A DNA stretch of 64,000 nucleotides from Bdellovibrionales bacterium (GTDB lineage: Bacteria; Bdellovibrionota; Bdellovibrionia; Bdellovibrionales; DASUEL01). The notes beneath the pieces were generated by a model. It worked only from the letters and a program-made list of their open reading frames with translations, made no database searches and was not told the origin of the DNA. Location: contig JBFWOZ010000007.1 in the NCBI GenBank assembly GCA_050250255.1, forward strand, positions 9,200 to 73,199, written 5' to 3'. A program made the translations under genes and the position numbers. Below are positions 7,840 through 61,057 of this stretch, piece after piece (position 1 is the first letter of the stretch; each line of letters opens with the position of its first letter).

Positions 7840-10412
7840 AATTGATTTTAAGGTTGGCCTGGAGAGAAATCAGGTCACAACCCAAATTCACTCTTTTTTT
7901 CGTCCTCAACATCGCATTTGGTATGTTGGGATTTTTTTCGCTCCTGTTATTAAAACAATCCATGGAAGAGGCGATTGAAACTCAATCACGGGCGATGTTA
8001 TCTGCAGACATCAGTGTTTCTGGCCGACGTGCTATCACCGAGGAAGAAGAAAAAAAGTTTGTCACGGTGATTGAAAAATTAGATCAAGGGTATGAACCGC
8101 AAAGGCGTACCGATATCGTTGAAATGTTTTCGATGTTAGCCAGTGACTCAGAGAAACAAAAAAAATCTTTACTCGTACAAGTCAAAAGTATTCAAGAGGG
8201 TTTTCCGCTTTTTGGAAGTGTACAATTAGAAAAATTTGGATTGTTGAGTTCGGGAAAAAGACCTGCACATCTTGGAACCTACCCACCCATGTGGGTGTAT
8301 CCAGAGATTTTGCCTCAGCTGGGTTTAAAGTTGAATGAACTTGTGCGTTTGGGAGAGCAAACATTTCAGGTGTCGGATCTGGTGCAGAAGGATATCGGTA
8401 CGGCATTTCGTCTTCTCTCGCTAGCTCCAAAAGTTTATATTCAAAGTCAGGATTTAGAGCGCACTGGTCTTATTCGATTTGGTACCACAAGTACTAGTAC
8501 TCTCTTTTACATTTTAAAATCTGCACCCGCGGAGTTAGTGGAAAACGAATTGCAAAAAGTTTTGCTTGATCCAGGGCTCGATGTGCGAAGTCACAAGACG
8601 GCGAGTGAGCAGATGAATCGTCTCATCAGCTATTTAAGCGATTATTTAGCGCTTGCGGCCGTTGTGGGTCTTTGCCTCTCGTCGCTCGGAACAGGTTTTC
8701 TTTTCCGTAATTATATAAATAAACGCTTCAAGGATATCGGAATTTTTATTTCTTTAGGGCTATCGCGCTCAAAAAGTGCTTTGGTTTTTGTCGCCGTTGC
8801 TTTTTTGTTGAGTTTAGCAGCGCTACTGCTGAGTACGATATTTTCCATCACAGTGAGCCCGTTTTTACTTAATCTTGTAAAGGCCTTTACGCCTTTTGAT
8901 CTTCATTTTAGTTTTGCTTTTGAGAATGTGTTTTTTTTCTTTCTTTTTTGTTTCGTGACTGTGGCTCTCTCCTGCGCTCCGGTTATTCTTAAAATACAGG
9001 ATTTAAAACCTTCGGGTCTTTTTCGTGAGCATGAATATGCAACGATGTCTCACAGCCTTAAGCCATGGTTGGTATTTCCTATTGCTTTGGCCGTTTTATG
9101 GGCCGTGGCCATTTGGCAAACACAATCTCCTCGTGTGGGAAGCATTTTTGTTGCAAGTTTCTTAGGCTCCTTTTTGCTGATTTATTTTTTCGCTCGATGT
9201 TTATTTTATCTTATCGCACGCCTCCCTCAGCCACATAATATTCAATGGAAAATCGCTTTCCGAAATATTGTTCGCATGGGGCCGGGAGTGCTCGAAAGTT
9301 TTTTATGTTTAAGCTTAGGATGTCTTCTCATGAATCTTATTCCGCAACTGCAAACCAGTATCCGCTCTGAAATTACGCAGCCGGAAAGCTTAAGCTTACC
9401 GAGTTTTTTTCTTTTTGATATTCAGCCAGAGCAAGTTGAGCCTCTCCAACAATTAGCAAAAAAGCATCAGTTTCAACTAGAGGCACTCTCACCACTCGTG
9501 AGAGCGAGGCTTGCGGCCATCAACAATCAAACTTTTCAAAAATCAGAAGAGAACGAAACGGGGCAGTCTCGCGAAGAGCAGCGAAACAATAACTTTAGAA
9601 ATCGTGGTTACAATCTCACGTATCGTGAATCCCTCAACTCGAGCGAAGTGATCATTGCGGGGCGTCCGTTCAGTACCCAAAAAGAGAAGGAGGCGGAGAT
9701 CTCTGTGGAGAAAGATTTCGCAAGCAGACTGAATCTTAAGCTTGGGGATAAGTTGAGTTTTGATATTCAGGGTGTTCCTATTGAAGGAAAAATCGTAAAC
9801 CTGAGACGGGTAAAGTGGAACAGTTTTCAACCCAATTTCTTCGTTGTTTTTCAATCTGGTGTGTTGGAAGAAGCGCCGAAGACATTTCTTGCGTCGATTC
9901 CGAGTCTCCCTCGCGTGCAGAGAGGTGTGCTTCAATCAGAACTGGTCTCGCAGTTCTCTAACGTTTCTATCATTGATGTAGAGAGAGCTATTCAACAAAT
10001 TTTGGAACTCACAGAGCAGATGTCGTGGGCGCTCTTTTTTATGGCAGGTCTTTGTATTCTTTCGGGGCTTGTCGTGCTTTATTCGGTGGCCAATTTGCAG
10101 GCTTACAACCGACGCTGGGACTACACGATGTTAAAAATCTTAGGTAGTAAGTTGAGTGATCTTCGCAAGAGCGTGCTGGTGGAGTATGGAGGCATGGCTT
10201 TCCTTGCGGCCCTCATTGGTGCAAGTATTAGTCTGCTTATGAGCTACGTACTGTCGATTTATATTTTTGATGGATCTTTTGAATGGAATACCTGGTCTTT
10301 TGTCCTGTCGATAGCCGCAGTCATTGTACTGAGCCTGTTGGTGGTGTGGATTGCTACCTATGTTTATTTGAAGGAAAAGCCAGGTCGCTATTTATTCAAC
10401 CGAGATCTTTGA
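7836..10412 (+). CDS. ABC transporter permease, FtsX-family double-domain (YbbP-like)
   Basis: About 860 aa with two blocks of 4-5 TM helices separated by a large soluble domain. Start taken at ATG 7836 (MKLILRLAWREIR), which forms an ATGA overlap with the ATPase stop. The ORF track starts at 7797. Confidence 0.75.
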   Translation: MKLILRLAWREIRSQPKFTLFFVLNIAFGMLGFFSLLLLKQSMEEAIETQSRAMLSADISVSGRRAITEEEEKKFVTVIEKLDQGYEPQRRTDIVEMFSMLASDSEKQKKSLLVQVKSIQEGFPLFGSVQLEKFGLLSSGKRPAHLGTYPPMWVYPEILPQLGLKLNELVRLGEQTFQVSDLVQKDIGTAFRLLSLAPKVYIQSQDLERTGLIRFGTTSTSTLFYILKSAPAELVENELQKVLLDPGLDVRSHKTASEQMNRLISYLSDYLALAAVVGLCLSSLGTGFLFRNYINKRFKDIGIFISLGLSRSKSALVFVAVAFLLSLAALLLSTIFSITVSPFLLNLVKAFTPFDLHFSFAFENVFFFFLFCFVTVALSCAPVILKIQDLKPSGLFREHEYATMSHSLKPWLVFPIALAVLWAVAIWQTQSPRVGSIFVASFLGSFLLIYFFARCLFYLIARLPQPHNIQWKIAFRNIVRMGPGVLESFLCLSLGCLLMNLIPQLQTSIRSEITQPESLSLPSFFLFDIQPEQVEPLQQLAKKHQFQLEALSPLVRARLAAINNQTFQKSEENETGQSREEQRNNNFRNRGYNLTYRESLNSSEVIIAGRPFSTQKEKEAEISVEKDFASRLNLKLGDKLSFDIQGVPIEGKIVNLRRVKWNSFQPNFFVVFQSGVLEEAPKTFLASIPSLPRVQRGVLQSELVSQFSNVSIIDVERAIQQILELTEQMSWALFFMAGLCILSGLVVLYSVANLQAYNRRWDYTMLKILGSKLSDLRKSVLVEYGGMAFLAALIGASISLLMSYVLSIYIFDGSFEWNTWSFVLSIAAVIVLSLLVVWIATYVYLKEKPGRYLFNRDL

Positions 10413-10418
10413 GTATGC

Positions 10419-10598
10419 AGGGCGTGTCCATACTTAGATTTTGGCTGCAAAAGTCATCTTCCTTCGCAGAAAATTGCTGCTCGTCTGCGATTTTCTGCGA
10501 CTTGGCTACGGCCAAGCCTCAAAAATCTTGTCTGCGCCTCAATTTTCTACTCGAAATCTGAACTTTTTCGCTTCAAAATCTAAGTATGGACACGCCCT
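10419..10598. repeat. 180-bp palindromic intergenic element with 24-bp perfect terminal inverted repeats
   Basis: agggcgtgtccatacttagatttt (10419-10442) is the exact reverse complement of 10575-10598. There is an internal 11-bp perfect hairpin (10464-10474 / 10490-10500). A central hairpin cttggc-tacg-gccaag (10501-10516) sits exactly at the element midpoint. Confidence 0.85.
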
Positions 10599-10601
10599 AG
10601 G

Positions 10602-11219
10602 ATGGAAATTACCTATTTTGATAACTACGAAGCTTTAAGTGCATCGGCGAATGAATGGTGTCGTGAAAAAATTCAGACCCACAAAGCGAAGAGTCTTTAC
10701 GTTCCCGCTGGCCAAACACCTATTGGCCTTTATCATCTTTGGGAAGAGACAAAACCAAATTTTTTAAAGTCCATTCAGCTCATTCAGATTGATGAAGTGA
10801 TTCAAGGGAACAAAAAAGATCTCTTCAAAAGTTTCTTTGAACAAGAGCTTCCTTCTTTTAAAAAACAAATTGAGTTTATAAAAGACAAACCACATTATGC
10901 GGATCTAGGCGTTCTTGGTTTGGGTACTAATGGACATGTGGCTTTTCATGAGCCGAGTGTGGACCCGGCCTTTTCTTTTGGGTATGTGGACCTCTCTGAA
11001 TCTACCAAAAAACATTTGGGAATTGAGGGCACTGCCGAGGCTGTTTCCTACGGGGTGGGGGCCTTTCTCAGGACTAAGGCACTTCTCCTTCTCATTAGCG
11101 GTAAAAACAAGAAACTTATTTTTGATCGTTTAATAGCAGGGGAAGACAATATCCCGGCTGTTTGGCTGACCTCCCATGAACGCTTGGATGTCTATGTAGA
11201 CCAGAGTTCCATCACTTAA
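10602..11219 (+). CDS. glucosamine-6-phosphate deaminase / 6-phosphogluconolactonase family protein (short form)
   Basis: 205 aa. GLGTNGHVAFHEP matches the NagB/Pgl family signature (G-x-G-x-[DN]-G-H-x-A-[FS]-x-x-P). Confidence 0.7.
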   Translation: MEITYFDNYEALSASANEWCREKIQTHKAKSLYVPAGQTPIGLYHLWEETKPNFLKSIQLIQIDEVIQGNKKDLFKSFFEQELPSFKKQIEFIKDKPHYADLGVLGLGTNGHVAFHEPSVDPAFSFGYVDLSESTKKHLGIEGTAEAVSYGVGAFLRTKALLLLISGKNKKLIFDRLIAGEDNIPAVWLTSHERLDVYVDQSSIT

Positions 11220-11475
11220 ATATTGGAATTCTCAAGCAAAAAGGGCCCTTTCTCCTTCCTTAAAGGATCCCCCATAGAGGAAGTGTGTTTTCATTAGGCT
11301 TTCGTGAAGAAATGGTGCCGATTGAAAAAAAAGTTTCCTGACTTAGGGGGTTATGGTACATCATTTTCAAGTAAACAGTCCGCGCGGGTCCGGTAGATGG
11401 CTACTCAGTTCCTTAAGCGGCTACGTAGGGTCGAGAGTGATGCACTCTATGATCTAGGATATGAGGAGGCTACAC

Positions 11476-14252: not shown

Positions 14253-14459
14253 ACGTTCCTCATCAAAGTCGAATCTTGTACCTAGATATAAGAATACCGG
14301 GGAACTGGACCTTTGTGTTGTAGCAGCTTGAGACTGACTAAAAGTTTAATAATAAATTATGAAAATTTGATGAAACTTCGTACACACATTTGTGAATGCT
14401 CTTGTTTATCGGGGGCTTACGGAAAAACAAAGGGAAATATAAAATCTCAATTTGAGAGA

Positions 14460-14615
14460 GGTTGGAGGTTTGGGGTTTATCGTTTGAGGTTTGTCGTACC
14501 GTTAGAGGTTTACCGTTTGAGTTTTCGGTTGAGTACCGCCTGAGATTTAGACCTCCAACCTCCAACCTTTAAACGGTACCTCAAACCCTAAACCTCAAAC
14601 GACAAACCTCCAACC
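14460..14615. repeat. mosaic GT-rich / CA-rich imperfect inverted repeat (long hairpin) just 3' of the kynB operon
   Basis: Perfect complementary blocks occur in antiparallel order: 14460-14472 with 14603-14615 (13 bp), 14480-14492 with 14590-14602 (13 bp), and 14496-14503 with 14572-14579 (8 bp). The arms are built from GGTTKGAGG-like units. Confidence 0.75.
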
Positions 14616-14621
14616 GTAAAC

Positions 14622-15251
14622 CTATGTCGTCACCAACACCGCTCTAACAGGAGAAGCATCCGCGCTAGCAATCTTCAACGGCATCGCAATCAACGTATAG
14701 TTACCAGGCTGTACATGAGCAAGAACAAGTCCTTCGAGATTCACAATTTGATTTTTCGAAATCGCTTGATGGCTTTCAAGAATTTTGTCAGCAAAAGGGT
14801 CAATGGAAGGAGTGTCGATTCCTATCAGGAGCACGTTCTTTTCGGACAAAAATTCAATCAGCTCGGGTGAAAGACTATTGAAATCTTCATTGAAATGATT
14901 GGGATCGGGAAAGGAATTTGTTTTGAGGAGTATTCTCTGCGAGGTGATGGATTCTTTTAGATCTTGAACTTGGATTCGCTTTCCTCGAGGGATATTCACT
15001 TCTAGCACCTGACAGTGACCGTAATAAGGTTCGAGCTCCATACGATCAATGCTCGGACCACTTCGTAGGTAGTGAGAGCGGGCGTCGGCATGAGCACCTA
15101 AATGTACGGTTGTATGAATAGAACTGAGTCCAATGTTCGCGCCTTGCTCCATATCTAACGAAATGTTGCGAGTAAAAGGCGTATCGCCTGGCCAAACCGC
15201 AATCTTTTCTGAAATGAGTGGCGAAATATCAATGAATTGGTTCTTCTTCAT
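14622..15251 (-). CDS. kynB: kynurenine formamidase (cyclase family)
   Basis: 209 aa. It has IDISPLISEKIAVWPGDTPF, HLGAHADA (the HxGTHxDxP-type metal motif) and C-terminal ADASPVRAV. It matches Bacillus/Pseudomonas KynB along its whole length, from memory. Confidence 0.8.
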   Translation of the reverse strand: MKKNQFIDISPLISEKIAVWPGDTPFTRNISLDMEQGANIGLSSIHTTVHLGAHADARSHYLRSGPSIDRMELEPYYGHCQVLEVNIPRGKRIQVQDLKESITSQRILLKTNSFPDPNHFNEDFNSLSPELIEFLSEKNVLLIGIDTPSIDPFADKILESHQAISKNQIVNLEGLVLAHVQPGNYTLIAMPLKIASADASPVRAVLVTT

Positions 15252-26089: not shown

Positions 26090-27733
26090 ATGAAAGAATT
26101 TTCGAGCCAAACTCGTAGTGAAAACCTCCAGAAACTTTCTGAAGAAAATTTTGATTTGTTGATTATTGGCGGTGGGATCACGGGTACGGGTGCCGCACGA
26201 GATGCTGCGAGCCGAGGCTTAAAGGTTGCGCTCATCGACGGCCAAGATTTTGCCTCGGGCGCGAGCTCACGATCGAGCAAACTCATTCATGGTGGTATTC
26301 GTTATCTCGAAAACTATGAATTTCATTTAGTTTTTGAAGCACTTAATGAGCGACAACGTTTATTTCACATCGCCCCTCATCTCGTTCATCCTCTGAAGTT
26401 TGTTCTCCCGCTCTATGAGGGGGACCGCGTCACTCCATTTCTCATGGGAATTGGAATGTGGCTTTATGATGCGCTCGCACTGTTTGATGTGCCAATGCTC
26501 CATTACTTTATGGGCCCTCGAAGTACGAAACGTGAGATTCCAAGTCTGCAAACAGATGGTTTAAAGGGTTCTTATGTCTATTCTGATGCGTACATGGATG
26601 ACGATCGACTCGTGATCGAAACCTTGCGCTCGGCTCATCAGTGGGGAGCCACAGCGGTGAACTACACCAAAGCGATCGGTGTAGAAATGCAAAATGGAAA
26701 AGTGGTGGCCGTTGATTGTCGCGATGAAAAAACAAAAAACACTTTTAAGATCAGAGCCAAACATTTTATTTCGACTGTAGGTCCGTGGACCGATATTTTA
26801 GGTCAGGATTTACTCAAAGATTGGAAAAAGCTTCTTCGACCAACAAAGGGAATTCATCTCACGTTTGAACAACATCGCTTTCCTTTGAAAGATGCCGTGG
26901 TTATGTCCACTCGAAATGATAAGCGCATTGTTTTTGGAATTCCTCGCCACGATATGGTGATTGTTGGAACGACAGACACCGCCTACCAAGAGCATCCAGA
27001 AAAAGTTTCGGCGACACGAGAAGATGTCGAATACCTTCTTAAAATTGTGAATAGTTATTTCCCTGGTGCAAAGCTCACCACAAAAGACATCGTAGCAAGT
27101 TACGCAGGCGTTCGTCCGCTCATTGATGACGGCGCCGAGACCGAGAGTAAAACCAGTCGCGAACATCTCATCAAAAGTGATCCACGCAACATCACATTTG
27201 TGGCGGGCGGGAAATACACAACCTACCGCTACATGTCGCAGCAGACGATCGATGCAGCACTTGAAAACTTTGATCACGAAACTCGAAGTCGTTTGCAAAA
27301 GAGTCAAACCGAGTTGCCGCTCAATCCTGCCGCGAGCACGGACAATATCTGGAGAAGTTTGCGAGAAGTGGACGGGCTTGCTCAAGAATATGGACTCAAA
27401 CCTTCGAGCGTAGAATGGCTCATTCGTCGACACGGTTATGAAGCACAAAATCTTTTAGCAATAAAAACCGAGCAAGACCCTGATCTCGCCATTTGGCAAA
27501 TGGAGGTGATTCAAGCGGTACGATATACAATGTGTCTGCACCTATTGGATTTTTATGTTCGAAGAACTCCACTGATGTTGTCGCGAAGAGATCACGGCAT
27601 GGGACTCATCGATGCAATCGCTCAATATTTCAGCCAAGAGCTCGGCTGGTCTGAAAATCAAAAAAGAGCTGAAGTTGAATCGGTAAAACAGTTCATTCTC
27701 ACCGAATACCGCTGGCGCACCACGAAGTTCTAA
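26090..27733 (+). CDS. glpD: FAD-dependent glycerol-3-phosphate dehydrogenase
   Basis: DLLIIGGGITGTGAARDAASRGLKVALIDGQDFASGASSRSSKLIHGGIRYLE is the characteristic GlpD N-terminus. 547 aa. Confidence 0.85.
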   Translation: MKEFSSQTRSENLQKLSEENFDLLIIGGGITGTGAARDAASRGLKVALIDGQDFASGASSRSSKLIHGGIRYLENYEFHLVFEALNERQRLFHIAPHLVHPLKFVLPLYEGDRVTPFLMGIGMWLYDALALFDVPMLHYFMGPRSTKREIPSLQTDGLKGSYVYSDAYMDDDRLVIETLRSAHQWGATAVNYTKAIGVEMQNGKVVAVDCRDEKTKNTFKIRAKHFISTVGPWTDILGQDLLKDWKKLLRPTKGIHLTFEQHRFPLKDAVVMSTRNDKRIVFGIPRHDMVIVGTTDTAYQEHPEKVSATREDVEYLLKIVNSYFPGAKLTTKDIVASYAGVRPLIDDGAETESKTSREHLIKSDPRNITFVAGGKYTTYRYMSQQTIDAALENFDHETRSRLQKSQTELPLNPAASTDNIWRSLREVDGLAQEYGLKPSSVEWLIRRHGYEAQNLLAIKTEQDPDLAIWQMEVIQAVRYTMCLHLLDFYVRRTPLMLSRRDHGMGLIDAIAQYFSQELGWSENQKRAEVESVKQFILTEYRWRTTKF

Positions 27734-27789
27734 AAGGTACGGACACACTTTTGGGACTTGGTGCGTCCCAAAAGTGTGTCCGTACCTTT
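27733..27789. terminator. perfect 25-bp stem / 7-nt loop hairpin exactly filling the gap between convergent genes
   Basis: aaaggtacggacacacttttgggac (27733-27757) is the exact reverse complement of 27765-27789. Each arm overlaps the adjacent stop codon by 1-2 nt. Confidence 0.7.
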
Positions 27790-33804: not shown

Positions 33805-34173
33805 TTATCGAGATTCGGATGGTTGATTCTGCTCTTCGTAAATTTGTTCTTGAATCAAAGCATCAGAATTTTTTGGTTTATAAGACTTTCGGAGCGAAGT
33901 GTCTTGAATGCCCGGCTCGGTTTGCATATTTACCCCGAAGCTGGAGTAGTCCGCTTGGTTTGTAAAGCTCGCCGACTGATCGATGTTCGGAGCAGAAAGA
34001 GAGTTGTCGACTTCGACTTTGTCTTTTTCGAGTTGCATTTTTTTGTGAGTGTAGGTCATGTGCTCATTCACAGACTTAAGAGATTTTTTAGGCGCCTGAT
34101 TCCGTGCCTCTACAAAAGAAGTCCGAGAAAACAGCAGTATCGTTATGAGACAAAATAGATTTTTGTAAGACAT
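33805..34173 (-). CDS. secreted hypothetical protein
   Basis: 122 aa with an N-terminal signal-like helix ITILLFSRTSFVEA. It is polar and low complexity with no recognised family. Confidence 0.4.
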   Translation of the reverse strand: MSYKNLFCLITILLFSRTSFVEARNQAPKKSLKSVNEHMTYTHKKMQLEKDKVEVDNSLSAPNIDQSASFTNQADYSSFGVNMQTEPGIQDTSLRKSYKPKNSDALIQEQIYEEQNQPSESR

Positions 34174-57419: not shown

Positions 57420-58190
57420 TTACAAAATATGAGCGCCGCTATCCACAAACATCGTTGTGCCGGTGATGTGTCGTCCACCTGGTCCGCAGAGGAAGGCACC
57501 TAAGTGACCAACGTCATCGGCAGAGATATTTTCTTTAAGCGGAGTTTTTTCTGCAGCCGACGAGAGCATTTCACGGAAATTACGAACGCCAGCAGCAGCC
57601 AATGTTTTCACGGGTCCTGCGGAAATCGCGTTCACACAAATCTTCTGTGGTCCAAGATCGTAAGCTAGATATCTCACGCTGGCTTCAAGTGCTGCTTTCG
57701 CAACTCCCATGACGTTGTAATTTGGGACAACCTTTTGGGCTCCCAAATAGGTCATTGTTAAAATAGTTCCACCATTTGGCATAAGAGGTTCGGCATGTTT
57801 CGCAAAAGGAATGAGAGAAAATGCACTCACATCAAGTGCGAGCCGAAAGCCTTCACGACTTGTGTTTACAAAGCGGCCATCGAGTTCTTCTCGGTTGGCA
57901 AAAGCCACCGAGTGAATGACCGCGTCCAGTGTGCCCCATTTTTTCTTTGTGGTTTCAAAAAGTTTTGCGATGTCTTCGTCTTTTGCGACATCGCAAGGTT
58001 CGATTAAAGTGGAACCTAAGCTTTCTGCAAGAGGGCGGACGCGTTTTTCAAGGCGCTCATCTAAATATGTAAACCCTAATTCACAGCCAGCCGCATGAAG
58101 TTGTTGGGCGACCGCCCAGGCGAGACTACGTTCATTCGCAACACCGACGATCAAGGCTTTTTTGCCCTTCATTGTTTCTGACATGTTCAA
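57420..58190 (-). CDS. fabI: enoyl-[acyl-carrier-protein] reductase (NADH) FabI
   Basis: ALIVGVANERSLAWAVA, NYNVMGVAKAALEASVRYLA (Tyr-x6-Lys) and ISAGPVKTLAA are FabI signatures. 256 aa. Confidence 0.9.
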   Translation of the reverse strand: MNMSETMKGKKALIVGVANERSLAWAVAQQLHAAGCELGFTYLDERLEKRVRPLAESLGSTLIEPCDVAKDEDIAKLFETTKKKWGTLDAVIHSVAFANREELDGRFVNTSREGFRLALDVSAFSLIPFAKHAEPLMPNGGTILTMTYLGAQKVVPNYNVMGVAKAALEASVRYLAYDLGPQKICVNAISAGPVKTLAAAGVRNFREMLSSAAEKTPLKENISADDVGHLGAFLCGPGGRHITGTTMFVDSGAHIL

Positions 58191-59305
58191 ATTCCTTTCA
58201 CGATTTCCACAACTTTTTCCACACCTTCAAGCCCTGACCAGAGTGGCAGTCGTACCACGCGTTCACTAAGATCATCCGTAACTGGAAGTGCGCCATTGGT
58301 ACGACCAAAGCGTTCTCCTGCAGGTGACGAGTGAAGTGGGATGTAGTGGAAAGCGGCTGTGATTTCTTTTTTCTTAAGTTGCTCAATAATGGATTCACGA
58401 ATTTTATGTGTGGGTGCGATCATGTAAAAAATGTGAGCGTTGTGTTCGCACTCTTGGGGAATCGTTGGGAGTTTGAAATCTCCCTTTTCTTCGAGAGGTT
58501 TGAGAGCTTTGTAGTATTCATCCCACACTAACATGCGCCCTTTTTGAATCTCTTGAGATCTTTCAAATTGCGCAAGTAGCAAGGCTGCTAACAAATCGCT
58601 ACAGATGTAAGAAGAGCCTACGTCCATCCAAGTGTAGAAAGCGGTCTCTCTTCGAAGAAAGCTTGTACGGTTCGTTCCTTTTTCGCGAATGATCTCGGAA
58701 CGTAGCAGGTAACTCTCGTCATTTACGACAAGAGCGCCACCTTCTCCAGAGACGAGATTTTTTGTTTCATGAAAACTGAAAGTACCAAAATCGCCAAGAG
58801 TACCAAGAGCTTTCCCTTTGTAGCGAGAGAGCACGGCCTGCGCGGCATCTTCCACTACGTAAAGATGATGTTTTTTGGCGATCGCAAGAATTTTATCCAT
58901 CTCGCAAGCAACGCCTGCGTAATGAACAATAAAAATCGCTTTTGTTTTGGGAGTGATATGCGCTTCGATGAGATTCTCGTCGATATTCAAGATATCGGGC
59001 CTGATGTCGACAAATACCGGTGTTGCCCCACGAAGGACTACGGCGTTAGCCGTCGAAACGAAAGTGAAGGAAGGCATGATCACCTCATCGCCCGGTTCTA
59101 ATTCACAAAGTAGAGCCGACATTTCAAGAGCTGCGGTACAGGAGTGAACAAGAAGAGCTTTTTTTGCTTTCGTTTGCGACTCGATCCACTGTTCACATTT
59201 ACGCGTAAAGGACCCATTTCCTTTAATCTGGCCAGATTCGAGGCAGGTCTTAATATATTCCATCTCTTTGGAAGAAAGGGAGGGTTTCGTGAACTCTATT
59301 GCCAT
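58187..59305 (-). CDS. DegT/DnrJ/EryC1-family PLP aminotransferase, WecE/RffA-like (dTDP-4-amino-4,6-dideoxy-sugar transaminase)
   Basis: The N-terminus ...EMEYIKTCLESGQIKGNGSFTRKCEQWIE parallels E. coli WecE (...GSGKLCGDGGFTRRCQQWLE). FHETKNLVSGEGGAL carries the PLP lysine. ATGA overlap with fabI. Confidence 0.75.
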   Translation of the reverse strand: MAIEFTKPSLSSKEMEYIKTCLESGQIKGNGSFTRKCEQWIESQTKAKKALLVHSCTAALEMSALLCELEPGDEVIMPSFTFVSTANAVVLRGATPVFVDIRPDILNIDENLIEAHITPKTKAIFIVHYAGVACEMDKILAIAKKHHLYVVEDAAQAVLSRYKGKALGTLGDFGTFSFHETKNLVSGEGGALVVNDESYLLRSEIIREKGTNRTSFLRRETAFYTWMDVGSSYICSDLLAALLLAQFERSQEIQKGRMLVWDEYYKALKPLEEKGDFKLPTIPQECEHNAHIFYMIAPTHKIRESIIEQLKKKEITAAFHYIPLHSSPAGERFGRTNGALPVTDDLSERVVRLPLWSGLEGVEKVVEIVKGI

Positions 59306-59313
59306 AGGGGGTG

Positions 59314-59342
59314 AATATAGAACTCATCTCACGAATAGGCAA
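59314..59342 (-). promoter_or_regulatory. candidate sigma70-type promoter of the wecE-like/fabI unit (leaderless or near-leaderless)
   Basis: On the minus strand it reads TTGCCT (comp 59337-59342), a 17-nt spacer, then TATATT (comp 59314-59319). The -10 box ends 8 nt before ATG 59305. There is no SD. Confidence 0.5.
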
Positions 59343-59583
59343 GGCCCGACGATTTCTAATGGTTTCAATATCGAGGCGCGAGGAGGAGGCATAGCGGTCC
59401 TATGCCGACGACGAGTAATGAAGAGATTGAAACCATTAGAAATCGCCCAAAGGGTTCTTCGCTCTTTCCTAGAACTTTTCGTTACTTCTCCTCAAAATAG
59501 CACCACTATTTTTCGTCGTCGCGCCTCAATTTCTAGAAAAGAGCGAAGAATCGGGTCTTGCCTATTCGTGAGATGAGTTCTAT
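59317..59583. repeat. 267-bp mirror-symmetric nested-palindrome element
   Basis: The 27-bp perfect termini are 59317-59343 and 59557-59583. Inner pair 1 is 59350-59369 / 59426-59445 (20/20). Inner pair 2 is 59455-59474 / 59531-59550 (19/20). Both 56-nt loops are mutually reverse-complementary at 40/56 positions. The centre cccaaaggg (59446-59454) lies at the exact midpoint. Confidence 0.9.
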
Positions 59584-59586
59584 TAA
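59558..59586 (+). promoter_or_regulatory. candidate sigma70-type promoter of the GT2 gene (leaderless or near-leaderless)
   Basis: TTGCCT (59558-59563), 17-nt spacer, TATTAA (59581-59586). The -10 box ends 9 nt before ATG 59596. There is no SD. Confidence 0.5.
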
Positions 59587-59595
59587 GTGTGTCTC

Positions 59596-60417
59596 ATGCA
59601 AAAGCTTTCTGTCGTGGTCTTAAGCTATAACCATCCATTACACACTGCGCGAGCGGTGAGGTCGGCTTTGCAATGGAATCTCCCAGTTTTGCTCGTACAC
59701 AATGGCAGTCTTTCCAAGCATGTGGAGCTTTTAAAAAAAGAGTTTCAGGAAACTTCACAATTCACACATTTGGTTCTTCCTGAAAATAAAGGTTATTCCG
59801 GCGGAGTGAATGAGGGTCTTTATGCGGCCACTTCTGAGTGGGTGATTTTTCTGACAAATGATTGTGAGCTACTGAGTGTACCGAAACTTCCTTTAAAGCC
59901 AATGGCGGTGATCCCCCAAGTTTTTCGTAGATCTCTCAATCAAATTGATTCTATAGGTGGTCTCTTTGAACCAACGAGCGGAAAGCTCGTGCACTGTAAA
60001 ACCAAAGAAGATTTTGAAAATCCTGACGCAAAATGGTCGCCCTACATTCCGGGTTCAAGCTTTCTCGTGCATCGCGAGGTGTTTGAAAAAACAAAAGGGA
60101 TGGATGAGAGTTTGGGAACCTACTGGGACGACGTCGATTGGTCCCTCAGAATTCAAAAAATGAATTTCCCTATCCAGCTTCAAGAGCAATGGCATGTGCT
60201 TCACTACGTAGGAAAAACTTGCCAAAAAAATCCGCTCTATTCCATTTACTATTTCCAGAGAAATCGAAAAAAGATTTCCTGGAAATACACAAAACCTTCT
60301 GAGAAACCAAAACTATGTTTCGCCTTAGCTAAAGATTGGACCCGCTTAAGTCTCAATCTCATTTCTAAAAAACGCTACTCCGACTTGCGCTTGATCAAGC
60401 GCGCTCTTTTTGAATAG
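59596..60417 (+). CDS. glycosyltransferase family 2
   Basis: MQKLSVVVLSYNHPLHTARAVRSAL is the typical GT2 opening. TNDCELL and YWDDVDW resemble DxD-type motifs. ATG 59596 is preferred over GTG 59587 because 59581-59586 looks like a -10 box. Confidence 0.7.
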   Translation: MQKLSVVVLSYNHPLHTARAVRSALQWNLPVLLVHNGSLSKHVELLKKEFQETSQFTHLVLPENKGYSGGVNEGLYAATSEWVIFLTNDCELLSVPKLPLKPMAVIPQVFRRSLNQIDSIGGLFEPTSGKLVHCKTKEDFENPDAKWSPYIPGSSFLVHREVFEKTKGMDESLGTYWDDVDWSLRIQKMNFPIQLQEQWHVLHYVGKTCQKNPLYSIYYFQRNRKKISWKYTKPSEKPKLCFALAKDWTRLSLNLISKKRYSDLRLIKRALFE

Positions 60418-60471: not shown

Positions 60472-60693
60472 ATGAGCGTGAAAGTTTCCCCTAAATACCA
60501 AGTCGTGATCCCTGAGCAGGTTAGGCAAACCCTTAATATTCGTCCTGGCATGGAAGTAGATGTGATCGCAAAGGGTGGTATTGCCTATATCGTTCCTGTC
60601 CCAACGGTGACGTCGCTTCGTGATAAAGTGAAAGATTATCTTTCTGCTTCTGACAAAAAGACGTTACGTGAAAAGAAAGACCGGAAGTTTTGA
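60472..60693 (+). CDS. vapB: AbrB/MazE/SpoVT-family antitoxin (VapB-like)
   Basis: SPKYQVVIPEQVRQTLNIRPGMEVDV is the SpoVT-AbrB swapped-hairpin motif. 73 aa. Confidence 0.75.
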   Translation: MSVKVSPKYQVVIPEQVRQTLNIRPGMEVDVIAKGGIAYIVPVPTVTSLRDKVKDYLSASDKKTLREKKDRKF

Positions 60694-60694
60694 T

Positions 60695-61057
60695 ATGGTT
60701 GTCGACAGTTCCGTTTGGCTCGAGATTTTCTTAGAAGGGGAAAAGTATAAAGAGTGCGAAAAACTTATAAAAAAAGAAACTCTCTATGTTCCGAGTCTCA
60801 TCCTTTTTGAACTTTATAAAAAAATTAAAACAAAAGTATCAGAAGATATCGCACTTGAGTGCGTCTCGCATTTAAGCCAGCACACCGTAGTGGATCTAAC
60901 GCGAGACGTGGCTTTACTTGCCGGCGACTTATCACTCGAATATAAACTCGCAATGGCCGATAGCGTAGTGCTCGCTCATTCGCGGCTTCTTTCATGTCCT
61001 CTTGTCACCTTAGACAATGATTTTTCTTCTGTACCTGGAGTTCTCGTCGTCAGATAG
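60695..61057 (+). CDS. vapC: PIN-domain toxin (VapC-like)
   Basis: Start at ATG 60695, 1 nt after the vapB stop. MVVDSSVWLEIF carries the first acidic residue. LAMADSVVLA and TLDNDF carry the later acidic residues. Confidence 0.75.
   Translation: MVVDSSVWLEIFLEGEKYKECEKLIKKETLYVPSLILFELYKKIKTKVSEDIALECVSHLSQHTVVDLTRDVALLAGDLSLEYKLAMADSVVLAHSRLLSCPLVTLDNDFSSVPGVLVVR

What the first reader, a model, noticed from the sequence alone, without database searches (positions are those of the whole stretch)
59314..59586. Sequence-identical mirrored promoters driving divergent, apparently leaderless envelope-sugar genes
The 27-mer atagaactcatctcacgaataggcaag (59317-59343) is the exact reverse complement of 59557-59583. 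Read outward, each copy contains TTGCCT, a 17-nt spacer, then a -10 box that straddles the repeat edge:
- TATATT toward the wecE-like/fabI unit (comp 59314-59319)
- TATTAA toward the GT2 gene (59581-59586)

The -10 boxes end 8 and 9 nt before the respective ATGs (59305, 59596). Predicted transcription starts therefore fall at or within a few nt of the start codons. Neither gene has a Shine-Dalgarno, whereas many genes in this window do (GAGGAGG at 11464, GGAGGGG before 44972, AAGGAG before 35932).

Only 11-12 nt outside the repeat are left on each side. So both promoters must lie in the palindrome, because the genes diverge. Perfect identity over 27 bp implies concerted evolution or strong selection for equal promoter behaviour on both sides.
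Basis: partly seen in the sequence, partly recalled or inferred. Interest (0 to 1): 0.7.

Follow-up and report, generated by a model that had tools for sequence, protein, structure and literature searches.

The report
Palindromic mobile element between divergent genes
The two "mirrored promoters" are the inverted ends of a 267-bp non-coding palindromic repeat element, found in only this lineage among those compared, between two envelope-sugar genes; it belongs to a repeat family seen in several bacterial phyla that I could not find described, and its ends probably now serve as both genes' promoters, as some known bacterial mini-transposons do.

Summary
The 27-mer at 59317-59343 is the exact reverse complement of 59557-59583, and the hexamers and distances are as stated.

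It is only the outer rim of a larger object. The arms extend to 33 bp (32/33). The 201 bp between them form two 96-nt hairpins, so 267 of the 290 intergenic bases are one nested palindrome.

Relatives with the same divergent gene pair have spacers of only 55-92 bp, with no sign of the element where DNA could be read.

Each hairpin carries a ~50-nt apical "head". The same head sits at the tip of TA/CTAG-flanked palindromic repeats of 163-272 bp. These are multi-copy in Gemmatimonadota, Binatia, Bacteroidota, Woeseiaceae and Burkholderiales genomes and plasmids, and occur on two IMG/VR contigs. The family is not in Rfam 15 and is unannotated in RefSeq plasmids.

So the arms are terminal inverted repeats of a MITE-like element. 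Their identity is a property of the element, not evidence of selection for equal promoter strength.

The promoter reading remains the best available. Only 11-12 non-element bases precede each ATG. The only sigma-70-like sites are the two outward ones (9/12 and 8/12). Each -10 box is the flanking TA plus four flank bases. There are no transcription data.

The parts
59317..59349 (+). Left outer arm (terminal inverted repeat). Base 59317 and the TA at 59318-59319 read as target-site bases, so the element proper starts at GAACTC (59320).
   Evidence: 32/33 complementary to 59551-59583; exact over 27 nt.
59551..59583 (-). Right outer arm (terminal inverted repeat). The TA at 59581-59582 reads as the second copy of the target duplication.
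   Evidence: TA/CTAG/YTAA flanks recur at family copies elsewhere.
59350..59445 (+). Hairpin H1: 23-bp stem (59350-59372 / 59423-59445) carrying a head core (59373-59422) whose purine-rich sense is on the + strand.
   Evidence: Stem 96% complementary. Model R1, built without window sequences: 61.6 bits, E 1e-16. Model R2, built from Burkholderiales and IMG/VR heads only: 34.0 bits, E 3e-5.
59446..59454 (.). Central junction CCCAAAGGG between the two hairpins; the dyad centre of the element.
59455..59550 (-). Hairpin H2: 23-bp stem (59455-59477 / 59528-59550) carrying a head core (59478-59527) whose purine-rich sense is on the - strand, so it is inverted relative to H1.
   Evidence: Stem 91% complementary. 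The interior matches the H1 interior in inverse orientation (I1: 56 nt, 71% complementary; aligned). R1 66.6 bits, E 2.7e-18. R2 33.5 bits, E 4e-5.
59314..59342 (-). Putative hybrid promoter for the wecE-like/fabI unit: -35 TTGCCT (59342-59337, inside the arm), 17-nt spacer, -10 TATATT (59319-59314 = TA plus 4 flank bases), then 8 nt to the ATG.
   Evidence: 9/12 match, the only hit of the standard scan. Function is inferred, not shown.
59558..59586 (+). Putative hybrid promoter for the GT2 gene: -35 TTGCCT (59558-59563), 17-nt spacer, -10 TATTAA (59581-59586 = TA plus 4 flank bases), then 9 nt to the ATG.
   Evidence: 8/12 match, found only with relaxed criteria; lacks the conserved final T. 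Function is inferred.
58187..59305 (-). wecE-like DegT/DnrJ/EryC1 aminotransferase gene, followed by the fabI-like enoyl-ACP reductase gene at 57420-58190.
   Evidence: Pfam PF01041, E 1.9e-94; PF13561, E 1.6e-85. 100% identical to a protein of a Bdellovibrionales bacterium MAG.
59596..60417 (+). GT2 glycosyltransferase gene.
   Evidence: Pfam PF00535; N-terminus conserved in homologues.

Best explanation
The mirrored 27-mers are the terminal inverted repeats of a 261-267 bp non-coding, TA-flanked palindromic repeat element (MITE-like). Among the lineages I could compare, only this Bdellovibrionales lineage has it between the wecE-like and GT2 genes.

The element has an outer 33-bp stem and two 96-nt hairpins. 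Each hairpin is tipped by a ~50-nt conserved head, and the two heads point in opposite directions. The same head defines a family of interspersed palindromic repeats present in several bacterial phyla.

The element leaves only 11-12 bp in front of each start codon. Each gene is therefore most probably transcribed from a hybrid promoter: a -35 box (TTGCCT) inside the repeat arm, a 17-bp spacer, and a -10 box made of the flanking TA plus four flank bases. Transcription would start at or next to the ATG, giving leaderless mRNAs.

Shown: the structure, the family membership and the lineage-specific presence. Inferred: mobility by a TA/CTAG-targeting transposase, promoter activity and leaderless translation. 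My confidence is about 0.9 for 'terminal repeats of a repeat-family element' and about 0.5 for 'these ends are the working promoters'.
For: Structure:
- Nested palindrome with three near-perfect helices.
- RNA-parameter fold -138 kcal/mol on either strand, z -12.9 and -12.3. DNA-parameter fold -82 kcal/mol on either strand.
- The left half aligns with the inverted right half. The arms are 32/33 identical, the head interiors match well (I1: 71% complementary over 56 nt), and the stems are unrelated in sequence.

Lineage-specific presence:
- Orthologous divergent pairs have spacers of 88 bp (L001), 92 bp (P0002/P0123 contig), 81 bp (L004), about 77 bp (L005) and 55 bp (L006/L007). The window has 290 bp.
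- Flank sequence is conserved with L004 right up to GTGAATATA, at the element boundary.

Family:
- A pattern taken from the part shared by H1 and H2 gave 15 hits in representative genomes. By my estimate about 0.07 are expected by chance. Several genomes have multiple copies.
- In those copies the motif sits at the apex of one long hairpin flanked by C|TA|G.
- BLAST from one such copy found Comamonas, Cupriavidus, Ralstonia and Mitsuaria plasmid copies, all intergenic and unannotated; one Comamonas plasmid has six places.
- Model R1, built without window sequences, finds H2 and H1 as its only significant window hits: 66.6 and 61.6 bits.
- Model R2, built only from Burkholderiales and IMG/VR heads that do not match my pattern, again ranks H1 and H2 first: 34 and 33.5 bits, E about 3-4e-5.
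- The distance from the TA to the head core is 53 nt here, against 55-56 nt in single-headed copies.
- Multi-hairpin versions exist elsewhere. A 272-bp Comamonas copy has ends that also begin TAGAAC and carries one head plus a second hairpin that neither model recognises. L017 has two opposite heads.

Promoter:
- The arm sites are two of only three sigma-70-like sites found in 59250-59650; the third is a weak internal one.
- Precedent exists for promoters on MITE ends (PMC10969869).
Against: - There are no transcription data of any kind.
- The GT2-side -10 (TATTAA) lacks the conserved final T and scores 8/12. The single hit of the standard scan is no more than shuffles give.
- Copy number in the source genome is unknown. 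The window holds only this locus, and an exact 20-mer of the arm is absent from representative genomes and JGI metagenome contigs apart from one chance hit.
- No transposase partner was identified.
- No empty site was found at nucleotide resolution.
- A 2-bp TA 'duplication' has a 1 in 16 chance of arising by accident.
- Removing the element leaves a 27-bp spacer. A further loss of roughly 50-65 bp of ancestral spacer must therefore be assumed.
- The family was first retrieved with a pattern derived from this window, so conservation of the 5' half of the head is partly built in.
Confidence: 0.6

Rival explanations
1. The element is a repeat-family insertion, but its ends are not the working promoters. 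Transcription would start inside the element, giving long structured leaders that may be cut by RNase III as in Correia-containing transcripts. Alternatively, the insertion has largely silenced one or both genes.
For: - The GT2-side -10 is poor, and the scan count is not above chance.
- A weak internal minus-strand site exists (TAGAAA-16-AAAAAT, 8/12).
- RNase III processing of MITE hairpins in transcripts is documented (PMC10969869).
- SD-less starts are common in this window, so 'no SD' does not by itself argue for leaderless mRNAs.
Against: - Both ORFs are intact and full length with conserved N-termini.
- No better promoter-like site exists anywhere in the 290 bp.
- A transcript spanning both arms would fold into a 33-bp perfect duplex next to the start codon.
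Confidence: 0.25
2. One reading: a native, locus-specific mirrored promoter pair, whose identical arms are kept identical by selection or gene conversion for balanced divergent expression.
For: - Exact 27-bp identity, with correctly spaced boxes on both sides.
- The L004 relative has a similar TTGCAA-16-TATATT-7-ATG arrangement on the wecE side.
Against: - Relatives with the same gene pair lack the repeat.
- Similarity between the L004 spacer and the element is not above chance: 302 of 1000 shuffles score as well.
- The inner hairpin stems carry no promoter boxes and are almost as perfect as the arms.
- The hairpin heads are members of a multi-copy family spread over several phyla.
Confidence: 0.05
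3. The heads act as RNA, for example as an sRNA, a protein-titrating decoy rich in GGA/GAGG, or a cis-regulatory structure. The locus would then be primarily a structured RNA gene pair, one head per strand.
For: - Invariant bases lie in apparently unpaired positions on the purine-rich strand: AGGCGC opposite GCAACG.
- They sit in a helix of tandem G.A/A.G pairs separated by single C-G pairs. Those C-G pairs flip to G-C in H1 and in Phaeodactylibacter, and the region becomes A-T pairs in Burkholderiales (my reading of the alignments).
- With two opposite heads, each strand carries one purine-sense head.
Against: - No Rfam family matches.
- In four annotated plasmid copies the head strand shows no consistent relation to the flanking genes: one sense, two antisense, one between divergent genes.
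- If the arm promoters fire outward, the heads are not transcribed from them.
- Covariation in a DNA palindrome cannot separate RNA-level from DNA-level selection.
Confidence: 0.08
4. An assembly artefact: a chimeric palindrome created by the assembler.
For: MAG contigs can contain fold-back chimeras, and long perfect inverted repeats are a known artefact signature.
Against: - A second assembly (Logan contig of SRR27751816) is identical over 400 bp across both junctions.
- The two halves are not simple mirror copies; their stems differ.
- The flanking genes are intact and syntenic with relatives.
Confidence: 0.02

Closest known systems
Correia repeat-enclosed elements (CREE/NEMIS) of Neisseria
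   Same: - A small (about 100-200 bp) non-coding palindromic element with terminal inverted repeats.
- Sits immediately upstream of genes, and sigma-70-type promoters on the element drive neighbouring genes (PMC10969869).
- From my own knowledge, not tested here: insertion at TA.
   Different: - I saw no resemblance to the Correia TIR as I recall it; no sequence comparison was run.
- Correia is confined to Neisseria, whereas this family's head occurs in several phyla.
- This element has a conserved apical head and, in this copy, a three-way two-headed fold. I am not aware of either in Correia.
- Promoter activity is demonstrated for Correia and only inferred here.
Other promoter-bearing bacterial MITEs (MITEAba12, BrickBuilt, QMITE1, SonMITE_1)
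   Same: Non-autonomous TIR elements reported to carry sigma-70-like promoter sequences that can affect adjacent genes (PMC10969869).
   Different: - Those families are genus- or family-restricted, as far as I know.
- No sequence relation was tested.
- Here both flanking genes of a divergent pair would depend on one element.
IS630/Tc1-mariner-type and IS5-type MITEs (e.g. MITEPsy1, which targets CTAG or YTAA)
   Same: - Family copies are flanked by C|TA|G or YTAA-like sequences, and this copy by TA.
- MITEPsy1 inserts at CTAG or YTAA, duplicating it (PMC3189936).
- IS630 duplicates the TA of CTAG (my own knowledge).
   Different: - No cognate transposase was identified.
- In this family the centre is conserved while the arms vary between genomes. 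As I understand it, a transposase-defined MITE usually shows the opposite.
REP / REPIN elements mobilised by RAYT (Y1) transposases
   Same: - Interspersed intergenic palindromes.
- Strand-specific imperfect hairpins with conserved unpaired bases.
- Pairs in inverted orientation.
- A Y1_Tnp gene lies beside the orthologous GT2 gene in a related genome.
   Different: - REPs are 20-40 nt with a 5' GTAG (my own knowledge). Here the hairpin units are 96-212 nt, begin TAG/CTAG and are TA-flanked.
- No RAYT gene was sought or found in the window.

Membership tests
MITE (miniature inverted-repeat transposable element), generic | Terminal inverted repeats | tested here: met
   33-bp arms, 32/33 complementary, exact over 27 nt.
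MITE, generic | Small and non-coding | tested here: met
   267 bp. The only overlapping ORF is a TTG-start 102-aa frame running through the palindrome. H2 read in its head sense contains a stop (my reading).
MITE, generic | Flanking target-site duplication | tested here: inconclusive
   TA at 59318-59319 and 59581-59582. It is only 2 bp and palindromic, so it cannot be told apart from an extension of the repeat. Family copies elsewhere are flanked by CTAG/TA/YTAA. No empty site was recovered.
MITE, generic | Multiple dispersed copies in a genome | tested here: inconclusive
   The family is multi-copy elsewhere: 4 contigs in a Longimicrobiales MAG, 3 in a Phaeodactylibacter MAG, 6 places in one Comamonas plasmid. 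In the source organism only this locus is visible in 64 kb, and the rest of that genome was not available.
MITE, generic | Cognate autonomous element or transposase with matching ends | not tested
   No transposase with matching termini was sought systematically.
Palindromic repeat family with the conserved apical head (defined here) | Head motif AGGCGC...ATAG-loop-CTAT...GCAACG at the apex of a long hairpin | tested here: met
   - R1 scores 66.6 and 61.6 bits; R2 scores 34.0 and 33.5 bits.
- The window heads deviate in the 3' box: GTAACG in H2 and GTAATG in H1, where all 11 family sequences aligned have GCAACG. H1 also has CCTAT where they have GCTAT.
- The window element has two heads, whereas most copies have one.
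Correia / CREE | Correia terminal repeat sequence; Neisseria host | not tested
   The window arm begins TATAGAACTCATC. I see no resemblance to the Correia TIR as I recall it, but no alignment was run. The host is a Bdellovibrionales MAG.
REP / REPIN | 20-40 nt REP unit with 5' GTAG, and an associated RAYT gene | tested here: not met
   Units are 96 nt hairpins here and 163-272 nt elements elsewhere; the ends are TAG/CTAG. RAYT presence in the source genome was not tested.
Sigma-70 promoter | -35 and -10 hexamers with 16-18 bp spacing | tested here: inconclusive
   wecE side 9/12, passing the scan. GT2 side 8/12, lacking the final T of the -10. The count is not above shuffles.
Sigma-70 promoter | A transcription start about 7 nt downstream of the -10 | not testable with these tools
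   Needs 5'-end mapping.
Leaderless mRNA | 5' end at the A of an AUG start codon; no SD | tested here: inconclusive
   Both genes start with ATG, lack an SD, and have 8 or 9 nt between the -10 and the ATG. The 5' ends themselves were not measured.
Rfam RNA families | A match at or near a family's gathering score | tested here: not met
   The only hit is a spurious long-hairpin match to MIR8562: 32.7 bits against a gathering score of 211. Nothing was found over family copies elsewhere.

The most novel reading that the evidence does not exclude
The ~50-nt head would be an undescribed functional nucleic-acid module, carried between phyla by TA/CTAG-targeting palindromic elements.

It is a strand-specific hairpin. 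It has an invariant AGGCGC/GCAACG internal loop and a helix of tandem G.A pairs interrupted by covarying C-G pairs. It would be read in single-stranded form, either as DNA (by the mobilising enzyme) or as RNA.

In this window the two-headed copy sits exactly between two divergent promoters whose -35 boxes lie in its outer stem. Negative supercoiling generated by divergent transcription could extrude the palindrome as a cruciform. That would sequester both -35 boxes and couple the two envelope-sugar genes in a supercoil-sensitive feedback loop.
Probability: 0.15. Interest if true: 0.7.

Novelty: new variant of a known kind. Interest (0 to 1): 0.45.

Why it matters
At the locus level this is a familiar story: a mini-transposon lands upstream of genes and its ends become their promoters. 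Two features are unusual.
- One element would serve both genes of a divergent envelope-polysaccharide pair.
- Both transcripts would be leaderless.

The wider value is the family that the locus exposed. It consists of interspersed palindromic elements whose centre is conserved across Bdellovibrionota, Gemmatimonadota, Binatia, Bacteroidota and Beta- and Gammaproteobacteria, while the ends vary. As I understand it, transposase-defined MITEs usually show the opposite pattern. The family is not in Rfam 15, is unannotated in RefSeq plasmids of culturable Cupriavidus, Ralstonia and Comamonas, and did not turn up in my literature searches.

If the head is functional, it can be tested directly in those culturable hosts.

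Tried and rejected
1. Left arm as ancestral wecE promoter. L004 has TTGCAA-16-TATATT-7-ATG, and by eye I saw further matches. A local-alignment test of the L004 spacer against the element was not significant: 302 of 1000 shuffles scored as well, and other relatives' spacers scored similarly. I dropped the idea.

2. Exact 20-mer of the arm in public collections. There were 0 hits in representative genomes. One hit in JGI metagenome contigs lay inside a phage-like coding region and is a chance match.

3. Rfam. There was no real match in the window region or over family copies.

4. BLAST of the window spacer against plasmids gave no match. The family was reached only through the head pattern.

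5. Empty-site search for the Cupriavidus and Ralstonia copies. Only filled sites or coding-only matches were found.

6. Membership of the second TIR element in the window (10419-10598). It shares GCGCCTCAATTT with H2 but scores only 11.5 bits, E 0.5. Not accepted as a member.

7. Nested TA-flanked insertion of H1 or H2 into a simpler palindrome. Neither hairpin is TA-flanked, so there is no support.

8. Four literature searches for a described family in Cupriavidus, Ralstonia, Burkholderia or with CTAG targets. They found only general MITE papers.

Full report
**1. The observation.**
The 27-mer ATAGAACTCATCTCACGAATAGGCAAG occurs at 59317-59343 (+) and 59557-59583 (-) and nowhere else in the window, even with 3 mismatches. 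No shuffle gave a match. Both start codons are supported by homologue N-termini. The source is a Bdellovibrionales bacterium MAG. A second assembly of the region (Logan contig L002) is identical; whether it rests on independent reads was not checked.

**2.
The repeat extends to 33 nt (32/33). The 201 nt between the arms are not a spacer. They are two 96-nt hairpins:
- H1, 59350-59445, with a 23-bp stem 96% complementary.
- H2, 59455-59550, with a 23-bp stem 91% complementary.
- A 9-nt junction, CCCAAAGGG, joins them.

The 290-bp intergenic region folds as a three-way junction at -138 kcal/mol on either strand, z about -12.9 and -12.3. With DNA parameters the value is -82 kcal/mol. Aligning the left half with the inverted right half shows three zones. 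The arms are 32/33 identical. The interiors match well (71% complementary over 56 nt). The 23-bp stems are unrelated in sequence, yet each still pairs. The element is therefore a dyad of two [arm + hairpin] units with the heads in opposite orientation.

**3. Relatives lack it.**
The divergent pair of a wecE-like gene and a GT2 gene is conserved in related Bdellovibrionota contigs. Their spacers are:

| Relative | Spacer |
|---|---|
| L001 | 88 bp |
| P0002/P0123 contig (78% WecE identity; start confirmed by the P0123 N-terminus; no DNA available) | 92 bp |
| L004 (wecE reduced to about 12 codons) | 81 bp |
| L005 | about 77 bp |
| L006/L007 | 55 bp |

The window has 290 bp. Flank sequence is conserved with L004 up to GTGAATATA, exactly at the element boundary. 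Removing the element leaves only 27 bp. An additional loss of roughly 50-65 bp of ancestral spacer therefore has to be assumed, and I cannot explain that step.

**4. The family.**
I took the positions shared by H1(+) and H2(-) as a pattern: GAGGCGCGASGASGANNNATAGNNNNNCTAT. By my estimate it should give about 0.07 chance hits in 596 Gb. It gave 15 hits:
- 4 contigs of one Longimicrobiales MAG.
- 3 contigs of a Phaeodactylibacter MAG.
- 2 contigs of a Binatia MAG.
- 2 contigs of a Gemmatimonadales MAG.
- 2 other Gemmatimonadota MAGs.
- 2 Woeseiaceae MAGs.

In all of them the motif sits at the apex of one long hairpin. Complete copies measure 163-212 bp, and their ends read C|TA|GTG...CAC|TA|G.

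The 3' half of the head (GAGGAG..GCAACGA) was not in the pattern and is conserved all the same. BLAST from one such copy reached plasmids of Comamonas, Cupriavidus, Ralstonia and Mitsuaria. All those copies are intergenic and unannotated, and one Comamonas plasmid has six places. A looser pattern found two more copies on IMG/VR contigs.

Across 11 sequences the invariant bases are AGGCGC, ATAG, GCTAT and GCAACG, and 18 of 29 stem pairs show compensatory changes.

Two covariance models test membership:
- R1 was built without any window sequence. Its only significant window hits are H2 (66.6 bits, E 2.7e-18) and H1 (61.6 bits, E 1e-16).
- R2 was built only from the Burkholderiales and IMG/VR heads, which do not match my pattern. 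It again ranks H1 and H2 first, at 34.0 and 33.5 bits, E about 3-4e-5.

The family is not in Rfam 15. Four literature searches found no description of it.

**5. Reading the head.**
This is read directly from the alignments. On the purine-rich strand the region between the invariant boxes can be written as a continuous helix. Tandem G.A/A.G pairs are separated by single C-G pairs.
- Those C-G pairs flip to G-C in H1 and in the Phaeodactylibacter copies.
- The whole stretch is replaced by A-T and G-C pairs in Burkholderiales.
- The invariant AGGCGC/GCAACG boxes form a 2x2 internal loop closed by G-C pairs.

The complementary strand would carry C.T/T.C mismatches instead. This points to recognition of a single-stranded fold, but a DNA palindrome cannot tell DNA-level from RNA-level selection. 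In four annotated plasmid copies the head strand has no consistent relation to neighbouring genes. That argues against a host-gene cis-regulatory RNA.

**6. How the window copy fits.**
The distance from the TA to the head core is 53 nt here and 55-56 nt in single-headed copies. The 33-bp arm plus the 23-bp stem thus correspond to one ordinary element arm.

The ends begin TA|GAACTC. The 272-bp Y-shaped Comamonas copy begins TTTA|GAACGTG. It has one head plus a second hairpin that neither model recognises. L017 shows two adjacent heads in opposite orientation. Multi-hairpin versions therefore recur in the family.

TA/CTAG/YTAA flanks fit IS630-type targets (my own knowledge) or IS5-type targets (MITEPsy1, PMC3189936). 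No transposase was identified, and no empty site was recovered. Mobility is therefore inferred from dispersed multi-copy distribution, not demonstrated.

**7. Do the arms act as promoters?**
Only 11 and 12 bp of non-element DNA precede the two ATGs, and the genes diverge. Transcription must therefore begin in the element.

| Scan | Result |
|---|---|
| Standard | Only TTGCCT-17-TATATT on the wecE side, 9/12. One hit, against a shuffle mean of 1.2. |
| Relaxed | Adds TTGCCT-17-TATTAA on the GT2 side, 8/12 with no final T, and one weak internal site. |

Each -10 box is the flanking TA plus four flank bases. Each -35 box lies wholly in the arm. This is the classic hybrid-promoter geometry known from Correia and other MITEs (PMC10969869). 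Spacings of 8 and 9 nt to the ATGs make leaderless transcripts plausible. However, SD-like motifs are found at only about 24 of 59 crude ORF starts here, so their absence is weak evidence. I rate this step at about 0.5.

**8. Verdict.**
The inference of selection or concerted evolution for equal promoters is not supported, because the identity is a property of the terminal repeats of a repeat-family element that relatives lack.

At the locus level this is a new member of a known kind, a MITE-like element donating promoters. The element family is best called a new variant of a known kind. Its features are a conserved apical head, variable arms, a distribution over several phyla and a two-headed copy. 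Interest is 0.45.

Noticed in passing
window 10419-10598: A second TIR-bounded structured element: 180 bp with perfect 25-bp ends (AGGGCGTGTCCATACTTAGATTTTG). It fills the whole gap between an ORF ending at 10412 and an ATG at 10602. RNA fold -85 kcal/mol, z -9.8. It resembles the head motif only weakly (R1 11.5 bits, E 0.5).
   Followed up: partly
window 27733-27789: A perfect 25-bp stem with a 7-nt loop, starting at the last base of an ORF (26090-27733). It could be a terminator or another palindromic repeat.
   Followed up: no
window 14454-14628: A cluster of GGTTTGAGG-type units forming 39-44 nt imperfect inverted repeats. By my crude ORF calls it sits between two minus-strand ORFs and slightly overlaps the downstream one.
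   Followed up: no
window 57420-60417 compared with L001, L005, L006: The three-gene block fabI / wecE-like / GT2 is inverted relative to the flanking BamE and M24-peptidase/patatin genes in the window and in the P0124 genome. L001, L005 and L006 have the opposite order. L004 shares the window's internal fabI(-)/GT2(+) order, but its flanks are not on the contig.
   Followed up: partly
window 60472-61057, and the orthologous slot in relatives: The slot between GT2 and the M24 peptidase gene is variable. It holds a MazE-PIN toxin-antitoxin pair here, a Y1_Tnp (PF01797) gene in GCA_041443025.1, and a 173-aa ORF in L001.
   Followed up: no
L004 560-601: In this relative the wecE-like gene is deleted except for its first ~12 codons (MAIDFTKASISS), which lie just upstream of the fabI start. 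GCA_041443025.1 also has no wecE-like gene called between fabI and GT2.
   Followed up: partly
window 33805-34173 (-): Another candidate leaderless gene: TATAAT lies 8 nt before the ATG, with no SD.
   Followed up: no
L013 398, L014 1917, L015 6786, L016 2955 (ORF ends from my own crude calls in high-GC MAG DNA): In several family copies the TAG of the flanking CTAG coincides with the stop codon of an upstream ORF. In the annotated copy L027 the SDR gene's own TAG stop lies 3 nt before the element's CTAG. This hints at a preference for insertion at or just after stop codons.
   Followed up: no
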